Shown in pieces: positions 15,321 through 26,708 of a stretch of 64,000 bases of DNA (the stretch's first letter is position 1; every line of letters begins with the position of its first letter). The notes below the pieces were generated by a model, which was not told where the DNA came from, made no database searches, and saw only the letters and a list, made by a program, of their open reading frames with translations. Made by a program: the position numbers and the translations under genes. Origin of the DNA: Escherichia coli (GTDB lineage Bacteria; Pseudomonadota; Gammaproteobacteria; Enterobacterales; Enterobacteriaceae); NCBI RefSeq assembly GCF_036507355.1, contig NZ_AP027877.1. One strand, 5' to 3'.

Positions 15321-15719
15321 GTCATGATACATTGGTGTGTTCATACTGATTATTAAAGATTATTTTCCACCACAATATAAAAACCACGCTTTAGCCTATA
15401 TATTAGTAACCATCTGATTTAACTAATAATGTTTGCTATACTGATCCTGCATTATACTCCCTCTGTTTTTCCATCCCTCTAATAACATAGGACATATCCA
15501 TGCGCTGATATCATGTATCCAGCAGTGAAGCCAGTATGAGAAAGACTCTGGCGAACGAGTTTTGGCTGATAAGCTGGGGATCGCTAGTTCTGATAAGATG
15601 GATGAAGCTGAACTTGTCCTGTTAGAACAACTCTACCAGTCCGTTTTTGAAGAACAGTTCCCGTAAAGACAGCTCAGCATAGCCATGCTAAAAAGCTGGC
15701 ATCCCCGCAGGGGTGGTAA

Positions 15720-17888
<2,169 letters not shown>

Positions 17889-17989
17889 CTAAGCATCACA
17901 GTGGCAGGTCGACAGGGACAAACCTGTGAGTCTGCAGGCTCGACGTTGTGACAGAAACAATCGCATCACACATCAACACCACAGCTTCC

Positions 17990-18270
17990 CGCTTCTGGTC
18001 TGTCGTCAATACTTTCGCCCAAGAACCACCTGAAGCGCCTGAAGCGCCTCCTTATCCGGCATGGCTTCAGCAAGCAGCTTCTTTGAGTCTGGCGTTCTCT
18101 TCCTCAAGCGACTCCAGGTGCTTAACCTCAAGCACCGCCATACTTCTTATGCTATGTGTAAAGAGTGGCATCGGAAATAGCGTGCTTGCAGCAGAGCTCA
18201 CGGGCAGAAACTCCAGCTTCTGCTTCACGGAGAACGCTGATTATCTGTTCGTCGGAAAAACGCTTCTTCA
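17990..18270 (-). mobile_element. Remnant of an IS3-family orfA (IS407/IS2-group-like), disrupted
   Basis: Minus-strand translation gives MKKRFSDEQIISVLREAEAGVSARELC... then ...KKYGGMEVPEVKRLKSLEEENARLKKLLAEAMLDKEAL, broken by a stop/frameshift; approximate boundaries. Confidence 0.45.
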
Positions 18271-18450
18271 TGGGAATCATATTCGGCGTCAGGGTCAATA
18301 TAAAGGCATTACTAGCATCGGGATGTACTAATCAACGGAGAGCAAGATCACATCCCTAACAGTATGACCAGATAAGCTATTCATAGTAAAAAAATATATC
18401 CACTAACCATCTAGAAGATAAGTCATGATTTTCACGGTAATGACTCCAAC

Positions 18451-18954
18451 TTATTGATAGTGTTTTATGTTCAGATAATGCCCGATGACTTTGTCATGCA
18501 GCTCCACCGATTTTGAGAACGACAGCGACTTCCGTCCCAGCCGTGCCAGGTGCTGCCTCAGATTCAGGTTATGCCGCTCAATTCGCTGCGTATATCGCTT
18601 GCTGATTACGTGCAGCTTTCCCTTCAGGCGGGATTCATACAGCGGCCAGCCATCCGTCATCCATATCACCACGTCAAAGGGTGACAGCAGGCTCATAAGA
18701 CGCCCCAGCGTCGCCATAGTGCGTTCACCGAATACGTGCGCAACAACCGTCTTCCGGAGCCTGTCATACGCGTAAAACAGCCAGCGCTGGCGCGATTTAG
18801 CCCCGACGTATCCCCACTGTTCGTCCATTTCCGCGCAGACGATGACGTCACTGCCCGGCTGTATGCGCGAGGTTACCGACTGCGGCCTGAGTTTTTTAAA
18901 TGGCGGAAAATCGTGTTGAGGCCAACGCCAATAATGCGTGCACTGGCGCGACAT
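18451..18954 (-). CDS. insB: IS1 InsB (expressed as InsAB' by frameshift)
   Basis: 167-aa ORF recognised as IS1 InsB. Confidence 0.93.
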
Positions 18955-19148
18955 CCGACGCCATTCATGGCCATATCAATGATTTTCTGGTGCGTACCGG
19001 GTTGAGAAGCGGTGTAAGTGAACTGCAGTTGCCATGTTTTACGGCAGTGAGAGCAGAGATAGCGCTGATGTCCGGCAGTGCTTTTGCCGTTACGCACCAC
19101 CCCGTCAGTAGCTGAACAGGTGGGACAGCTGATAGAAACAGAAGCCAC
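18873..19148 (-). CDS. insA: IS1 InsA
   Basis: 91-aa [43 protein letters not shown]... Confidence 0.93.
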
Positions 19149-19504
19149 TGGAGCACCTCAAAAACACCATCATACACTAAATCAGTAAGTTGGCAGCATC
19201 ACCTAAGTCTTGAGCCATTATTTCTATAAAATACATGTTAAATCATATTAGAATAGTTTATACGATAATTCGCTTGAAGAAGAAAAACACTATTCTAATT
19301 CAAACATTTTATATTATCAAGAACCATGGTAATTACAGTTAATTTACAGTATCAGTGATGTGGTTTCCAAAAAAGTATGCCCAAACATTTAAATATATGC
19401 CTTCGATAAATGAACTTTAACTCATCAGAATGACTACCCATCAATACTATTGAGTATATGAAGACAATTCACAGTCCCATCTGGCGAATTTTTCAGATGG
19501 CGAG

Positions 19505-23407: not shown

Positions 23408-23668
23408 TGAGTGTCCTCACAATCACGAATATTAAATTCATAAATTGGAGACAATCCTAACATGAATCAAAAGAATCATCACACAATCATGTAGTTAAAA
23501 GAACAAGCTGGAACCTGATTTTTTATAGCATTTTCACGCAGCACAGTTTTTGCCCACGATAGTATCACCGGATTACGCTCACTCAAGATCAAGCTTATCG
23601 TACACCCGCACTACATATCAGCTACACCCATCACCGTAACCGAGTCCCATCGATATTCACTGACTAGT

Positions 23669-23713
23669 GTTGATACACCCATATAGATATATATACCCAT
23701 TGAGTGTATCAAC
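23669..23713. repeat. Inverted repeat (10-bp arms GTTGATACAC / GTGTATCAAC around an AT-rich TATATATA core) between the 290-aa gene and the KAP NTPase gene
   Basis: Perfect 10-bp arms separated by 25 bp; candidate operator or attenuator. Confidence 0.4.
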
Positions 23714-23765
23714 TGATGGATTACATGCGTCTAAACGCTTATAGACATCCTGTCTTATGGACAAA

Positions 23766-24638
23766 CTACTTACGGGTTCTCACCCCAGAGGTAAATGTCA
23801 GTCCAGTAAACCCCATCTCATCCTGCTTACATAACGCCCGTGCCAACAGAACAGGCGGCAGCCTGTGTTTGGGGGTACGGCGTTTTCCTGCCTCATCAGG
23901 ATAAGGTCTTACTTCCAGCCACATCCCCTTGAAGCAGTATGTTACCTGCTCGTCAAAATCCTTCAGCTTCTGGCTTTTCATCGGCCGACTGATTATCCCC
24001 GCTCTGGCCCGCATATTTTTATCCCTCTTCATCGCCTTTCTTAGCGTTTTGAGCGCCCCCGGCTCTCTCGGCATCAGTAGATGCAGGTGAGGCATCCAGC
24101 GCTGGATATCGGTGTGAAAATCCAACTCGTAGTCACCCACTATTTTGCCCGTAAATCCGGCTCTTTTTATCATCTTGTAGACCCGCTCCCGGAACTTCTT
24201 ATGATCCCAGCGGCTGATCTCGTCTTCTTTCAGCATGGCATCGTAATAAACCAGCGTAACCACTCTGTACGCGCCCTTAGAGGCCCTCAGTGGGAGCAAT
24301 TCAGTCAGCTTACGTAACCTGTGCAGGCGGAAACACTGTGGGCAGGCCGCGCTACCACATTGATGTTCTGGCATACAGCCCTCCAGTTTTCTCTTTAACC
24401 GAAACATCCGCCCTCGCCACTTTTTGTGTGCTTTTCTGACTTCTTTGCTCTCATCCTGATTATCATTCCTGTTCTGCCGCACAGCCTTTCGTATTGCTTT
24501 TATGCGGTACAGGCGTTCCTTCTCCATTTGCTCCCGGGTTTCAAAACCCGGAATGGTAAGAGCTAACTTTTCCAGTTGGCGCTCTTCTTCTGTCAGTGAT
24601 GCATACACTGCTCGCGCAATACGGTTTGTACCAAACAT
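23766..24638 (-). CDS. Hypothetical protein with Cys-rich zinc-finger-like motif, immediately downstream of alpA
   Basis: ORF 23766-24689; start placed at the ATG at 24638 adjacent to the alpA stop; contains CMPEHQCGSAACPQC; no confident family. Confidence 0.6.
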   Translation of the reverse strand: MFGTNRIARAVYASLTEEERQLEKLALTIPGFETREQMEKERLYRIKAIRKAVRQNRNDNQDESKEVRKAHKKWRGRMFRLKRKLEGCMPEHQCGSAACPQCFRLHRLRKLTELLPLRASKGAYRVVTLVYYDAMLKEDEISRWDHKKFRERVYKMIKRAGFTGKIVGDYELDFHTDIQRWMPHLHLLMPREPGALKTLRKAMKRDKNMRARAGIISRPMKSQKLKDFDEQVTYCFKGMWLEVRPYPDEAGKRRTPKHRLPPVLLARALCKQDEMGFTGLTFTSGVRTRK

Positions 24639-24639
24639 A

Positions 24640-24834
24640 TCAGCAACCTCCTCTGGTCCCACGGGAAGCAATCCACTCATTGACTTCACTTTCCAGCCAG
24701 GCCACCGCTCGTCCTCCTGTCAGGGATTTTTGGCGTGGGAAAGTCCCTTTTTCAATCATCCGGTACAGTGTGGCGCGGCTCACCGCACAGCGTTCCAGCA
24801 CAGCCTGAATTTTGACCAGTTTCATATCATTCAT
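24640..24834 (-). CDS. alpA: AlpA-family phage transcriptional regulator / excisionase-like protein
   Basis: 64-aa ORF with AlpA-type HTH (RCAVSRATLYRMIEKGTFP). Confidence 0.85.
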   Translation of the reverse strand: MNDMKLVKIQAVLERCAVSRATLYRMIEKGTFPRQKSLTGGRAVAWLESEVNEWIASRGTRGGC

Positions 24835-24941
24835 GTTTCAACGTTCCTCAACAAGGAAAGGGAACGCGCTATTAACAAGATCCAAAATCGGGGCTCTGTG
24901 AGGGGGGGGTTGGGACGTCTACTGGCTCGTTTCATACCTAT

Positions 24942-25547
24942 TTGTCGGGCCGACACTTTATGTCCATTGTCGGTCCGACAAAAGAGTCGTTAGAATGCTC
25001 AAAAATGAATGCATCAACGGGAGTTCGCGTGACAGGAAAAAGGCAGACCAGCCGCCAGAAACGGTCAGATAAAATGAGGAAAAATGCAGGATTGACTCAA
25101 GTGAAGGTTTACCTGGATGAAACCACTCTGCAGTTACTGGGGTTACTTCAGGAAAATATGTCAGAAGGTGATATGAAGGGTGATGAGGTCAATATGTTCC
25201 GTAGCATGGCTATAACGGCCAGTATCCACACCCTGGCAAAAGAACGACTGGGGGAACAAGAAGTATCGCATATGGTGATCAAGAACCTCGGTGCTGACTG
25301 CCCATCCGACGAAGCGACAGAAAACCCACGTAAGTTTCTTCTCCGGACGATGATTAACCACCTGTATGATAATGGCACACACAATCCGCACCGCCGTCGA
25401 TTGTCAGAAGTGGCTGGAATTATGAATGAAAGCAGTTTCAGGAACCCGAAGAACAAAAAAGGGGGATGGAGTGAAAATGATATCAGTCACTATGTCAGCA
25501 ATGACATAAAACTGGAAAATGATACCTCGGTTGATGTACCGGGCTAA
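24942..25547 (+). CDS. Hypothetical protein, divergent from alpA
   Basis: 201-aa ORF; true start uncertain; no recognisable motif. Confidence 0.45.
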   Translation: MSGRHFMSIVGPTKESLECSKMNASTGVRVTGKRQTSRQKRSDKMRKNAGLTQVKVYLDETTLQLLGLLQENMSEGDMKGDEVNMFRSMAITASIHTLAKERLGEQEVSHMVIKNLGADCPSDEATENPRKFLLRTMINHLYDNGTHNPHRRRLSEVAGIMNESSFRNPKNKKGGWSENDISHYVSNDIKLENDTSVDVPG

Positions 25548-25760
25548 GCAAATCTATACACCAATATATTTATCTCTGGAATACCCTGGTCGGGGAGCAC
25601 GAATTAGTTATTCATCAGGGGTGGTGAGTTGGTCGTGCTTTCCCGGAAGGCAGGTGCGCCAACGCCAGTACTTGGTATACCTGTGGGCTATCAAAAATAG
25701 TCTCTGGCCCCGTTTGATGGTTTTAACCAACAGGCTGCGGTGGTCATCCCCCATGAAAGC

Positions 25761-26708
25761 TTACCAGCAACATAGCGCCCTGGAGGCTCTGTCTACAGCC
25801 TGCCTGCCCCTACAGTCATAGCGTGTGGTCGTGGATATATCCGCATGTCCTGCCAACTGGCGCACCACATTAATGTCCACTCCCTGCTCCAGCAGGCGGG
25901 TGATGAATGTCCGTCGCAGGTCGTGGGGGGTGAAGTAATCCACTTCTGCAGCTTCGCGTAACTGCGCCAACAGCCCTGTAAGACCCGTGGTGGTAAGCCG
26001 TTGTCGTCCTGGCTGCCCCGCACGACTGATGCGACTGAACAGCGGCCCGGCATGATACCCCCGGAGCTTCAGCCATCGCCGCAGTTGCATGCAGACTTTT
26101 CCGGAAAGGTGGATTTCCCGGATTTTGCGCCCCTTTCCCTGCCTGACAATCACGATCCCCGTGGCTACATCTATATCTCCCACGTCCAGGGCTACCAGTT
26201 CGGCGGCACGCAGACCTGCGCCACACAGAAGCAGCAAAATAGCCCGATTACGCTGGCAACGTACAGCGTCAGCCTTTCCGGCCGCCGCCAGCATGGCCCG
26301 AATTTCGGTCCTGTCCAACGCCCTGCCCAAGCGGGTGGCACTGCCAGTGACACGCCTGACTGAACGTATGCGCGTCAGTCTGTCAGCATCCAGAATCCCC
26401 ATACTGAAAGCCGCTCCGGCAACCGATTTCAGCGCCGACAGCGCCATGTTCACCGTGGCAACAGCATAGCCCTCATCCAGCAGCACCGAGCGTACCCGCA
26501 TCACGCTCGTGTAGTCCAACGTATGCCAGGGGTAGGTGTCGGGCTTCGCCCCCGGACGGAGGATACCGGCACATCGTCGGAGTAAGCTTTGCATCCCCCT
26601 GCGCCCGGCTGGCGTCAGGCTTGCCAGCCACAGCAATGCTGGGTTGATGGAGAGGGCATTTTGCGGGTGGACAGATGCCGCGCGTTTACCATTGCGGCTC
26701 GTGGTCAT
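25761..26708 (-). CDS. Tyrosine-type site-specific recombinase (XerC/XerD-like, about 315 aa)
   Basis: Catalytic-box residues (R in LRAAEL, HDLRRTF, ISTTTRY); visibly GC-rich relative to neighbours. Confidence 0.8.
   Translation of the reverse strand: MTTSRNGKRAASVHPQNALSINPALLWLASLTPAGRRGMQSLLRRCAGILRPGAKPDTYPWHTLDYTSVMRVRSVLLDEGYAVATVNMALSALKSVAGAAFSMGILDADRLTRIRSVRRVTGSATRLGRALDRTEIRAMLAAAGKADAVRCQRNRAILLLLCGAGLRAAELVALDVGDIDVATGIVIVRQGKGRKIREIHLSGKVCMQLRRWLKLRGYHAGPLFSRISRAGQPGRQRLTTTGLTGLLAQLREAAEVDYFTPHDLRRTFITRLLEQGVDINVVRQLAGHADISTTTRYDCRGRQAVDRASRALCCW

What the first reader, a model, noticed from the sequence alone, without database searches (positions are those of the whole stretch)
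24835..24941. G8 homopolymer in the divergent intergenic region between alpA and the 24942 ORF
A run of eight G at 24902-24909 lies in the short shared promoter region of two divergent genes. Such tracts can change promoter spacing by slipped-strand mispairing and give phase-variable expression.
Basis: inference. Interest (0 to 1): 0.25.

Follow-up and report, generated by a model that had tools for sequence, protein, structure and literature searches.

The report
Variable poly-G run upstream of alpA
The eight-G run is real and its length differs between E. coli strains (6, 7 or 8 G), but it behaves as a slowly evolving, stably inherited length variant outside every predicted promoter core, not as a fast on/off switch.

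Summary
The G8 run at 24902-24909 is confirmed. The window is E. coli ET881, in a genomic island beside ychF. One G/C run of 8 or more in 64 kb is about what chance gives (0.65 expected).

Across about 50 assemblies carrying the same island, the run is G6 (majority), G7 or G8. G8 occurs in 8 assemblies from several projects, so it is not an artefact. The length follows the flanking SNP haplotype: 3 ordered steps on a 25-assembly tree, against a mean of 14 for shuffled labels. No length variation occurs within any haplotype among the trusted assemblies except the central one, which carries G7 and G8.

The run is absent from sister lineages in E. coli KL53, Salmonella and Aeromonas.

No sigma-70-like promoter candidate on either strand has the run in its spacer. 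Candidate scores are identical for G6 to G9. The + gene really starts at GTG 25029. Its conserved promoter (24967-24996) overlaps two invariant palindromes 58 bp or more from the run. The alpA promoter is not located.

One point favours a regulatory effect. The run sits in a segment that is exactly 29 nt in all other lineages and in G6 islands, but 31 nt here.

Verdict: an ordinary slippage polymorphism. A slow rheostat effect on alpA remains possible but untested.

The parts
24902..24909 (.). G8 homopolymer (C8 on the alpA strand). Alleles G6, G7 and G8 occur in other carriers.
24835..25028 (.). True divergent intergenic region (194 bp) between alpA and the + gene.
24640..24834 (-). alpA, 64 aa, AlpA/excisionase-type HTH regulator. 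SD GAGGAA lies at 24845-24850 (complement).
23766..24638 (-). 290-aa gene directly after alpA (same operon by position). No family hit.
24875..24891 (.). alpA-proximal conserved block ACAAGATCCAAAATCGG (block A). Function unknown.
24912..24920 (.). Conserved block GGGACGTCT just beyond the run. Block A end to its TCT is 29 nt in all other lineages and 31 nt here.
24943..24955 (.). Palindrome IR1, TGTCGGgCCGACA. The 12-nt core TGTCGGGCCGAC is invariant from E. coli to Aeromonas. Candidate operator.
24967..24981 (.). Palindrome IR2, TTGTCGGtCCGACAA. Candidate operator that supplies the -35 of the + gene promoter.
24967..24996 (+). Predicted promoter of the + gene, TTGTCG-18-TAGAAT (12.0 bits). 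Its position is conserved in all enterobacterial lineages.
24955..24981 (-). Best minus-strand (alpA) promoter candidate, TTGTCG-15-TAAAGT (8.4 bits). It is weak and not conserved. If used, the run would be transcribed in the alpA leader.
25029..25547 (+). Divergent gene, 172 aa from GTG 25029 (RBS GGGAG 25019-25023). Orphan family found in E. coli, Salmonella and Aeromonas.
25761..26708 (-). XerC/D-like tyrosine recombinase, a conserved member of the four-gene module.

Best explanation
The run is a lineage-specific homopolymer in a poorly conserved spacer segment upstream of alpA. It lies in the regulatory region of a conserved four-gene island module: 290-aa gene and alpA on one strand, facing the 172-aa gene and a XerC-like recombinase. 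The ancestral state of this island lineage is G6, which has the same spacing as every related lineage. Replication slippage added one G, then another, in one sub-clade. The window strain ET881 inherited the G8 allele. Each allele is then transmitted stably. The run lies outside the core of every predicted promoter. The + gene promoter and its palindromic operators are 34-58 bp or more away, and their internal geometry does not change with tract length. Shown: the run, its alleles, their phylogenetic distribution, its absence from sister lineages, and the promoter predictions. Inferred: the direction G6 to G7 to G8, the slippage mechanism, and the lack of switch function.
For: The window is identical to ET881 over 12.8 kb.

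Alleles read directly:
- G8 in 8 assemblies from several projects, including short-read-style drafts.
- G7 in 6 assemblies.
- G6 in about 35 assemblies.

Among trusted assemblies there are no other indels in 2.2-3.4 kb of flank.

Tract length tracks the SNP haplotype: 3 ordered-parsimony steps on 25 assemblies with 23 SNP columns, and 0 of 2000 label shuffles reached 3 or fewer. That is 2-3 tract events against 23 substitutions in 2.24 kb, roughly 200-300 times the per-base rate. This is the order expected for a G6-8 run, because indel rates rise exponentially with run length in E. coli (PMC8510543).

The run is absent from KL53-type, Salmonella and Aeromonas versions. KFu019 reaches G7 by substitution at unchanged total length.

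The + promoter is conserved in position. One G/C run of 8 or more per 64 kb is close to expectation.
Against: Assemblies are consensus sequences, so within-culture heterogeneity cannot be seen. Sampling is not random, because the longest contigs are read first and similar places are collapsed. The alpA promoter was not located, so a position just upstream of its -35 cannot be excluded. The segment holding the run has an exactly conserved length (29 nt) from E. coli to Aeromonas even though its sequence is not conserved. G7 and G8 break this, which hints that length matters. All 2-3 changes occurred in the clade that already had 7 or more G, consistent with mutability rising with length.
Confidence: 0.7

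Rival explanations
1. Promoter-proximal rheostat. The run sits just upstream of the alpA core promoter, or between it and an upstream regulator site. Each added G shifts the distance and helical phase between them, so G6, G7 and G8 are heritable expression settings for the AlpA excisionase/regulator. Through AlpA they would set different levels of island excision.
For: The distance from the alpA-proximal conserved block to the conserved TCT is exactly 29 nt in KFu019, three KL53-type loci, Salmonella and four Aeromonas-type loci, and in G6 islands. It is 30 nt in G7 and 31 nt in G8. Block A to IR1 is 54 nt in enterics and 75 nt in Aeromonas, a difference of 21 nt or two helical turns. If the conserved TGT.AAT of block A is a -10-like element, the run falls at about -39 to -46, adjacent to the -35 position (my reading). 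Precedents exist: the sabA T-tract (PMC4081817) and a one-base fimX promoter allele with a 3.8-fold effect (PMC1891110). AlpA dose drives excision in CP4So (PMC5148205).
Against: No acceptable sigma-70 match exists at block A; no minus-strand promoter candidate at block A reached the 4-bit reporting threshold. IR1-IR2 spacing itself varies between lineages (25, 27, 28 nt), so the region is not uniformly rigid. The alleles are stable over evolutionary time, with no sign of frequent reversible change. The run is absent from related modules, so it is not a built-in regulatory device.
Confidence: 0.18
2. Leader-ORF frame toggle. alpA is transcribed from the operator region, and a short upstream ORF reads through the C-run. 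Tract length sets where that ORF stops relative to the alpA start codon, and so changes translational coupling.
For: An ORF opens at GTG 24956, with an in-frame ATG at 24935. It gives 41 aa with its stop overlapping the alpA ATG (ATGA) for G8, 38 aa ending 3 nt before the ATG for G6, and 27 aa ending 37 nt upstream for G7. The best minus-strand promoter candidates lie in the IR region in all enteric lineages.
Against: There is no Shine-Dalgarno sequence before either start. GTG 24956 lies inside the operator palindrome and upstream of the TSS implied by the best candidate promoter. The peptides are not conserved, and the conserved DNA block AGACGTCCCAA is read in different frames in different lineages. 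The leader has no significant RNA structure (z = +1.1).
Confidence: 0.04
3. Sequencing or assembly artefact: the true tract is G6 everywhere, and G7/G8 are homopolymer miscalls.
For: Two assemblies (CP163840.1 and GCA_974498875.1) with unexpectedly short tracts also carry a second 1-nt indel in another G-run that frameshifts a gene. G-run miscalling therefore does occur in this data set.
Against: G8 is present in 8 assemblies from at least 5 submissions, including fragmented drafts typical of short reads. G7 is present in 6, including one metagenome assembly. These assemblies have no other indel in 2.2-3.4 kb. The alleles co-segregate with SNP haplotypes, which random error would not do.
Confidence: 0.03

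Closest known systems
Bordetella pertussis fimX promoter homopolymeric tract, described as micro-evolution at HPTs (Gogol et al. 2007, PMC1891110)
   Same: A G/C homopolymer in a promoter region exists as alternative alleles differing by one base. Each allele is fixed in its own set of strains rather than switching within cultures.
   Different: There the longer allele was shown to lower transcript 3.8-fold, and the promoter is known. Here neither the effect nor the alpA promoter is known.
Helicobacter pylori sabA T-tract rheostat and the hp_0350/pyrG divergent pair (Aberg et al. 2014, PMC4081817)
   Same: A homopolymer lies in an intergenic, partly divergent promoter region outside the -35/-10 spacer. 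Its effect would come through the alignment of upstream elements with the core promoter.
   Different: Those tracts are A/T runs of 9-16 or more, highly variable between and within strains, with measured multiphasic output. This one is G6-8 in a mismatch-repair-proficient species, with 2-3 changes in the whole sample.
Classical promoter-spacer contingency loci: N. meningitidis porA/opc poly-G/C and H. influenzae hifA/hifB TA repeats in overlapping divergent promoters (own knowledge; survey in PMC5084427)
   Same: A simple repeat lies between two divergent genes, and slippage is the mutational mechanism. In the survey, homopolymers of 8 nt or more were the ones found variable by deep sequencing.
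   Different: In those loci the repeat lies between -35 and -10, and its length sets sigma-factor docking. Here no predicted promoter contains the run.
AlpA-controlled cryptic prophages/islands CP4-57 and CP4So (Zeng et al. 2016, PMC5148205)
   Same: alpA encodes a small HTH excisionase/regulator whose level controls element excision, and its promoter is the control point (Pfam and PHROG hits).
   Different: Control there is by H-NS at the alpA promoter. No repeat tract is described. The intergenic DNA here, with its TGTCGGnCCGACA palindromes, has no match outside this small module family: 30 of 5426 E. coli genomes, one Salmonella record labelled as a plasmid in the plasmid collection, and no phage record.

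Membership tests
SSR phase-variable (contingency) promoter locus | Repeat lies within the core promoter (between -35 and -10, or overlapping them) | tested here: not met
   The consensus scan and my PWM scan found no candidate on either strand spanning 24902-24909. The candidate set and scores are identical for G6-G9. This is prediction only; no TSS data exist.
SSR phase-variable (contingency) promoter locus | Tract length polymorphic between strains | tested here: met
   G6, G7 and G8 in otherwise 99.4% or more identical islands.
SSR phase-variable (contingency) promoter locus | Rapid, reversible change: different lengths among near-identical isolates, and homoplasy on the tree | tested here: not met
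   3 ordered steps on 25 assemblies; shuffled labels gave a mean of 14.2 and a minimum of 8. About 35 G6 carriers are invariant.
SSR phase-variable (contingency) promoter locus | Length heterogeneity within a single culture (read level) | not testable with these tools
   Only consensus assemblies are available.
SSR phase-variable (contingency) promoter locus | Tract longer than composition predicts | tested here: inconclusive
   1 G/C run of 8 or more observed against 0.65 expected in 64 kb. G8 is at the lower edge of the lengths found variable in Neisseria.
SSR phase-variable (contingency) promoter locus | Expression of the adjacent gene changes with tract length | not testable with these tools
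   Needs reporter fusions or RNA measurements.
Promoter-proximal SSR rheostat (sabA type) | Tract adjacent to or upstream of the -35, between the core promoter and an upstream element whose alignment matters | tested here: inconclusive
   The invariant 29-nt spacing across lineages is broken by G7/G8, but the alpA promoter is not identified.
Promoter-proximal SSR rheostat (sabA type) | Great length variability among strains | tested here: not met
   Only three trusted alleles exist, and they are phylogenetically structured.
AlpA family (PF05930) regulator/excisionase (the flanking gene) | Match to the Phage_AlpA model above its gathering score | tested here: met
   59.5 bits against a cut-off of 21 over residues 4-55. 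PHROG 2790 and PHROG 66, 'excisionase and transcriptional regulator'.

The most novel reading that the evidence does not exclude
The G6/G7/G8 alleles are functional settings. By lengthening an otherwise invariant 29-nt spacer between two conserved blocks upstream of alpA, they would change AlpA output, either transcriptionally or through the stop position of a leader ORF. The alleles would thereby fix different, heritable excision or stability levels of this island. That would be a slow, slippage-driven rheostat on a mobile element in a mismatch-repair-proficient enterobacterium.
Probability: 0.15. Interest if true: 0.5.

Novelty: new member of a known kind. Interest (0 to 1): 0.2.

Why it matters
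As it stands this is mostly a cautionary result. A G8 run between divergent genes looks like a contingency locus, yet comparison across about 50 carriers shows stable, clade-specific alleles and no promoter that contains the run. If the spacing effect were real, simple slippage would tune the mobility of a genomic island in E. coli, a species where repeat-driven regulation is rare. The comparison also gives a corrected gene start, a conserved promoter/operator layout for a small uncharacterised island module, and a warning that G-run miscalls in some assemblies mimic tract alleles.

Tried and rejected
- **Collection scans with the flanking-anchor pattern.** Genome contigs gave 0 hits, viral contigs 0, and metagenome contigs only 2. 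These added little. A search of the phage collection found no match.
- **Rfam scan of 24500-25300.** The only hit was a chance miR-223 match, E = 0.17.
- **RNA folding of the putative alpA leader.** It is no more structured than shuffles (z = +1.1), so a leader-structure role for the C-run was dropped.
- **Identity of the 172-aa protein as a repressor.** There is no Pfam, NCBIfam, PHROG or PDB sequence hit. The AlphaFold model is poor (pLDDT 65.5), so no fold search was run. The exhaustive profile search found only 5 proteins, one of them repetitive junk. My guess of a ribbon-helix-helix N-terminus therefore stays unsupported.
- **Promoters with the run in the spacer.** I examined TAGACG-17-CAGAGC (minus strand) and TCTGTG-17-TCTACT (plus strand) by eye. 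Both are far below threshold, consistent.
- **G-quadruplex idea.** G7 or longer creates only a relaxed-loop motif and never a strict one. This is speculative and was not pursued.
- **G5 and the G6-in-G8-haplotype alleles.** I discounted both as probable G-run under-calls.

Full report
**Observation.** The sequence reads CTGTGA-GGGGGGGG-TTGGGACG, with the eight G at 24902-24909. The run lies between alpA (24640-24834, minus strand; PF05930 at 59.5 bits against a cut-off of 21) and a divergent plus-strand gene. It is the only G/C run of 8 or more in the window. A first-order Markov model expects 0.65 such runs in 64 kb, so the run alone is not beyond chance.

PGAP uses ATG 24960. All 14 homologues start at the residue encoded by GTG 25029, which follows GGGAG at 25019-25023. 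The intergenic region is therefore 24835-25028, 194 bp.

**Context.** The window is identical to the E. coli ET881 chromosome (NZ_CP100890.1) over 12.8 kb. The region belongs to an island next to ychF. The island carries:
- a P4-type integrase and IS elements;
- a YobI-type NTPase;
- the 290-aa gene with alpA, facing the 172-aa gene and a XerC-like recombinase;
- DUF905, CbtA/CbeA, DUF2787 and RadC genes.

The four-gene core (290-aa gene, alpA, 172-aa gene, recombinase) recurs in E. coli, Salmonella and Aeromonas. Only 30 of 5426 complete E. coli genomes carry it.

**Tract length across strains.** I read the run directly in loci fetched from complete genomes, draft assemblies and metagenomes. 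For the remaining complete genomes I inferred it from match length.

| Allele | Carriers |
|---|---|
| G8 | ET881, ET729, ET826, GCA_017164705.1, GCA_023610695.1, GCA_020163775.1, GCA_030238165.1, GCA_052959575.1 |
| G7 | Z226-1, GCA_010994105.2, GCA_949281635.1, GCA_030799605.1, GCA_012340775.1, one ENA metagenome contig |
| G6 | about 35 carriers, including 20 RefSeq complete genomes and a Salmonella record |

Two outliers were set aside. CP163840.1 has G5, and GCA_974498875.1 has G6 in a G7/G8 haplotype. Each has a second 1-nt indel in another G-run (25925 and 25461) that frameshifts a gene, so I treat both as G-run under-calls.

The G7 and G8 assemblies have no other indel in 2.2-3.4 kb of flank. 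They come from several submissions, so these alleles are real.

**Tempo of change.** Over window 24460-26700 there are 23 SNP columns among 25 non-redundant assemblies. Tract length follows the SNP haplotype:
- both G6 clades are invariant;
- G7 marks the clade defined by T at 25673;
- G8 occurs in two haplotypes one SNP away from a G7 haplotype.

Ordered parsimony needs 3 steps, or 2 if the polytomy is resolved favourably. Shuffling the labels gives a mean of 14.2 and a minimum of 8, and 0 of 2000 shuffles reach 3 or fewer. KFu019, a 98.4% relative, has cGGGGGGGcg. It reaches G7 by substitution with the total length of the G6 form. G6 spacing is therefore ancestral, and G7 and G8 are successive expansions.

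The tempo is 2-3 tract events against 23 substitutions in 2.24 kb, about 200-300 times the per-base substitution rate. Taking about 2e-10 per bp per generation for E. coli (own knowledge, Lee et al. 2012), this is of order 1e-8 to 1e-7 per generation. That is a rough, neutrality-assuming inference. It sits far below the 1e-5 or more usually required for phase variation (own knowledge). It fits the exponential dependence of indel rate on run length reported for E. coli (PMC8510543). The same contrast between phase variation and micro-evolution at homopolymers was drawn for Bordetella (PMC1891110).

**Conservation of the tract.** In the alignment of ten intergenic regions from five lineages, only the window lineage has the run. 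KL53-type loci have GCTACGTTTTGGGACG, Salmonella has GCTACGTTTTGTGACA, and the Aeromonas-type loci have unrelated sequence. The tract is therefore not a built-in element of this regulatory region.

**Promoters.** The consensus scan and my PWM scan (the weights are approximations from memory of classical compilations) find TTGTCG-18-TAGAAT at 24967-24996 on the plus strand (12.0 bits). The same alignment columns give a promoter in KFu019, the KL53 type and Salmonella (8.3, 8.2 and 6.7 bits). It fits a start about 26 nt before GTG 25029.

This promoter overlaps two palindromes, TGTCGGgCCGACA (24943-24955) and TTGTCGGtCCGACAA (24967-24981). The 12-nt core of IR1, TGTCGGGCCGAC, is invariant from E. 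coli to Aeromonas, and the IR2 core differs only at its central positions. Aeromonas has three copies. They are probably operators; the binding protein is unknown.

On the minus strand the best candidate is TTGTCG-15-TAAAGT (24981 to 24955, 8.4 bits). KL53-type and Salmonella loci have different candidates in the same IR region. None is convincing.

The alpA promoter is therefore not located. There are two possibilities:
- It lies in the operator region, so the run is transcribed at about +30 to +45 of a roughly 110-nt leader.
- It lies at the conserved alpA-proximal block, so the run sits at about -39 to -46.

**The one point in favour of function.** The distance from the end of the alpA-proximal block (ACA[AG]G.ATC.AAA) to the conserved TCT of GGGACGTCT is exactly 29 nt in nine loci of four other lineages, including Aeromonas. 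This holds even though the intervening sequence is almost unconserved. The distance is 29 nt in G6 islands, 30 in G7 and 31 in the window.

Block A to IR1 is 54 nt in enterics and 75 nt in Aeromonas, a difference of 21 nt or two helical turns. This suggests a spacing or phase constraint that G7 and G8 violate. IR1-IR2 spacing varies (24-28 nt), so the whole region is not rigid.

A sabA-like rheostat (PMC4081817) or a fimX-like allele effect is therefore possible. AlpA level is known to drive excision in a related element (PMC5148205). I give this rival 0.18.

**Other readings.**
- **Leader ORF.** A minus-strand ORF through the C-run changes its stop position with tract length: an ATGA overlap with alpA for G8, 3 nt before the ATG for G6, and 37 nt upstream for G7. 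It lacks a Shine-Dalgarno sequence, starts inside an operator, and is not conserved as a peptide. I give it 0.04.
- **Leader structure.** The leader has no significant structure.
- **RNA families.** No Rfam family matches.
- **G-quadruplex.** G7 or longer creates only a relaxed G-quadruplex motif.

**Verdict.** Most likely this is an ordinary, stably inherited homopolymer length polymorphism (0.7). Interest is low (0.2). The residual novel reading is a slow rheostat on island excision, with probability about 0.15.

Noticed in passing
window 24942-25031: The start of the + gene is over-called (TTG 24942 by ORF listing, ATG 24960 by PGAP). All 14 homologues begin at the position of GTG 25029, behind GGGAG at 25019-25023. 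The annotated N-terminal 23 residues would lie over the gene's own promoter and operators.
   Followed up: yes
window 24943-24955 and 24967-24981: Two palindromes TGTCGGnCCGACA lie 25 bp apart. The IR1 core TGTCGGGCCGAC is invariant from E. coli to Aeromonas, which has three copies at 24-25 bp spacing. They overlap the conserved + gene promoter and are probably operators for an unidentified regulator.
   Followed up: partly
window 24875-24920: An exactly conserved 29-nt spacing separates two conserved blocks across lineages whose intervening sequence is unconserved. Aeromonas has a 21-nt (two-turn) insertion further upstream. The nature of the alpA-proximal block (minus strand CYTGTNAATR) is unexplained.
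   Followed up: partly
window 25029-25547 (+): The 172-aa divergent gene belongs to a very small orphan family: 18 clusters at 90% identity, and 5 hits among 1.84 billion representatives. It has an invariant N-terminal motif AGLxQVKVYLD. No Pfam, NCBIfam, PHROG or PDB match was found, and the AlphaFold model is poor (pLDDT 65.5).
   Followed up: partly
window 23766-24638 (-): The 290-aa gene directly after alpA has no family hit. It contains a Cys cluster (CGSAACPQC) and an HLHLL motif reminiscent of HUH nucleases; this is my reading of the sequence only.
   Followed up: no
L029 (CP163840.1) at window-equivalent 25925; L048 (GCA_974498875.1) at 25461: Both assemblies have a shortened tract and also a second 1-nt deletion in another G-run that frameshifts the recombinase or the + gene. 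This is probably systematic G-run under-calling, a caution for typing tract alleles from assemblies.
   Followed up: yes
L011, L012, L017 at window-equivalent 23460-24222: The 3' half of the 290-aa gene and its downstream flank is a recombinant version (58 SNPs plus indels). The rest of the module differs from the window at only 1-2 SNPs, and an HsdM-type methylase gene lies downstream instead of the YobI NTPase.
   Followed up: partly
plasmid-labelled record CP101356.1 164896-165801 (Salmonella enterica): The alpA/+ gene segment is 99.6% identical to the E. coli one (G6 form by length), so the module is shared between E. coli and Salmonella.
   Followed up: no
window 24836-24858 (minus-strand RNA): A small hairpin, GUUCC...GGAAC, covers the alpA Shine-Dalgarno sequence in both the MFE and centroid folds. 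The KL53 lineage has a different but stronger hairpin at the same place by eye.
   Followed up: no
window 15400-19400: IS21/IS100kyp-type and IS1 insertions lie between the island integrase and the YobI NTPase gene. They are shared with ET729 and ET826 but absent from most other carriers, which instead have ADP-ribosylglycohydrolase, 3'-5' exonuclease and IS30 genes.
   Followed up: no
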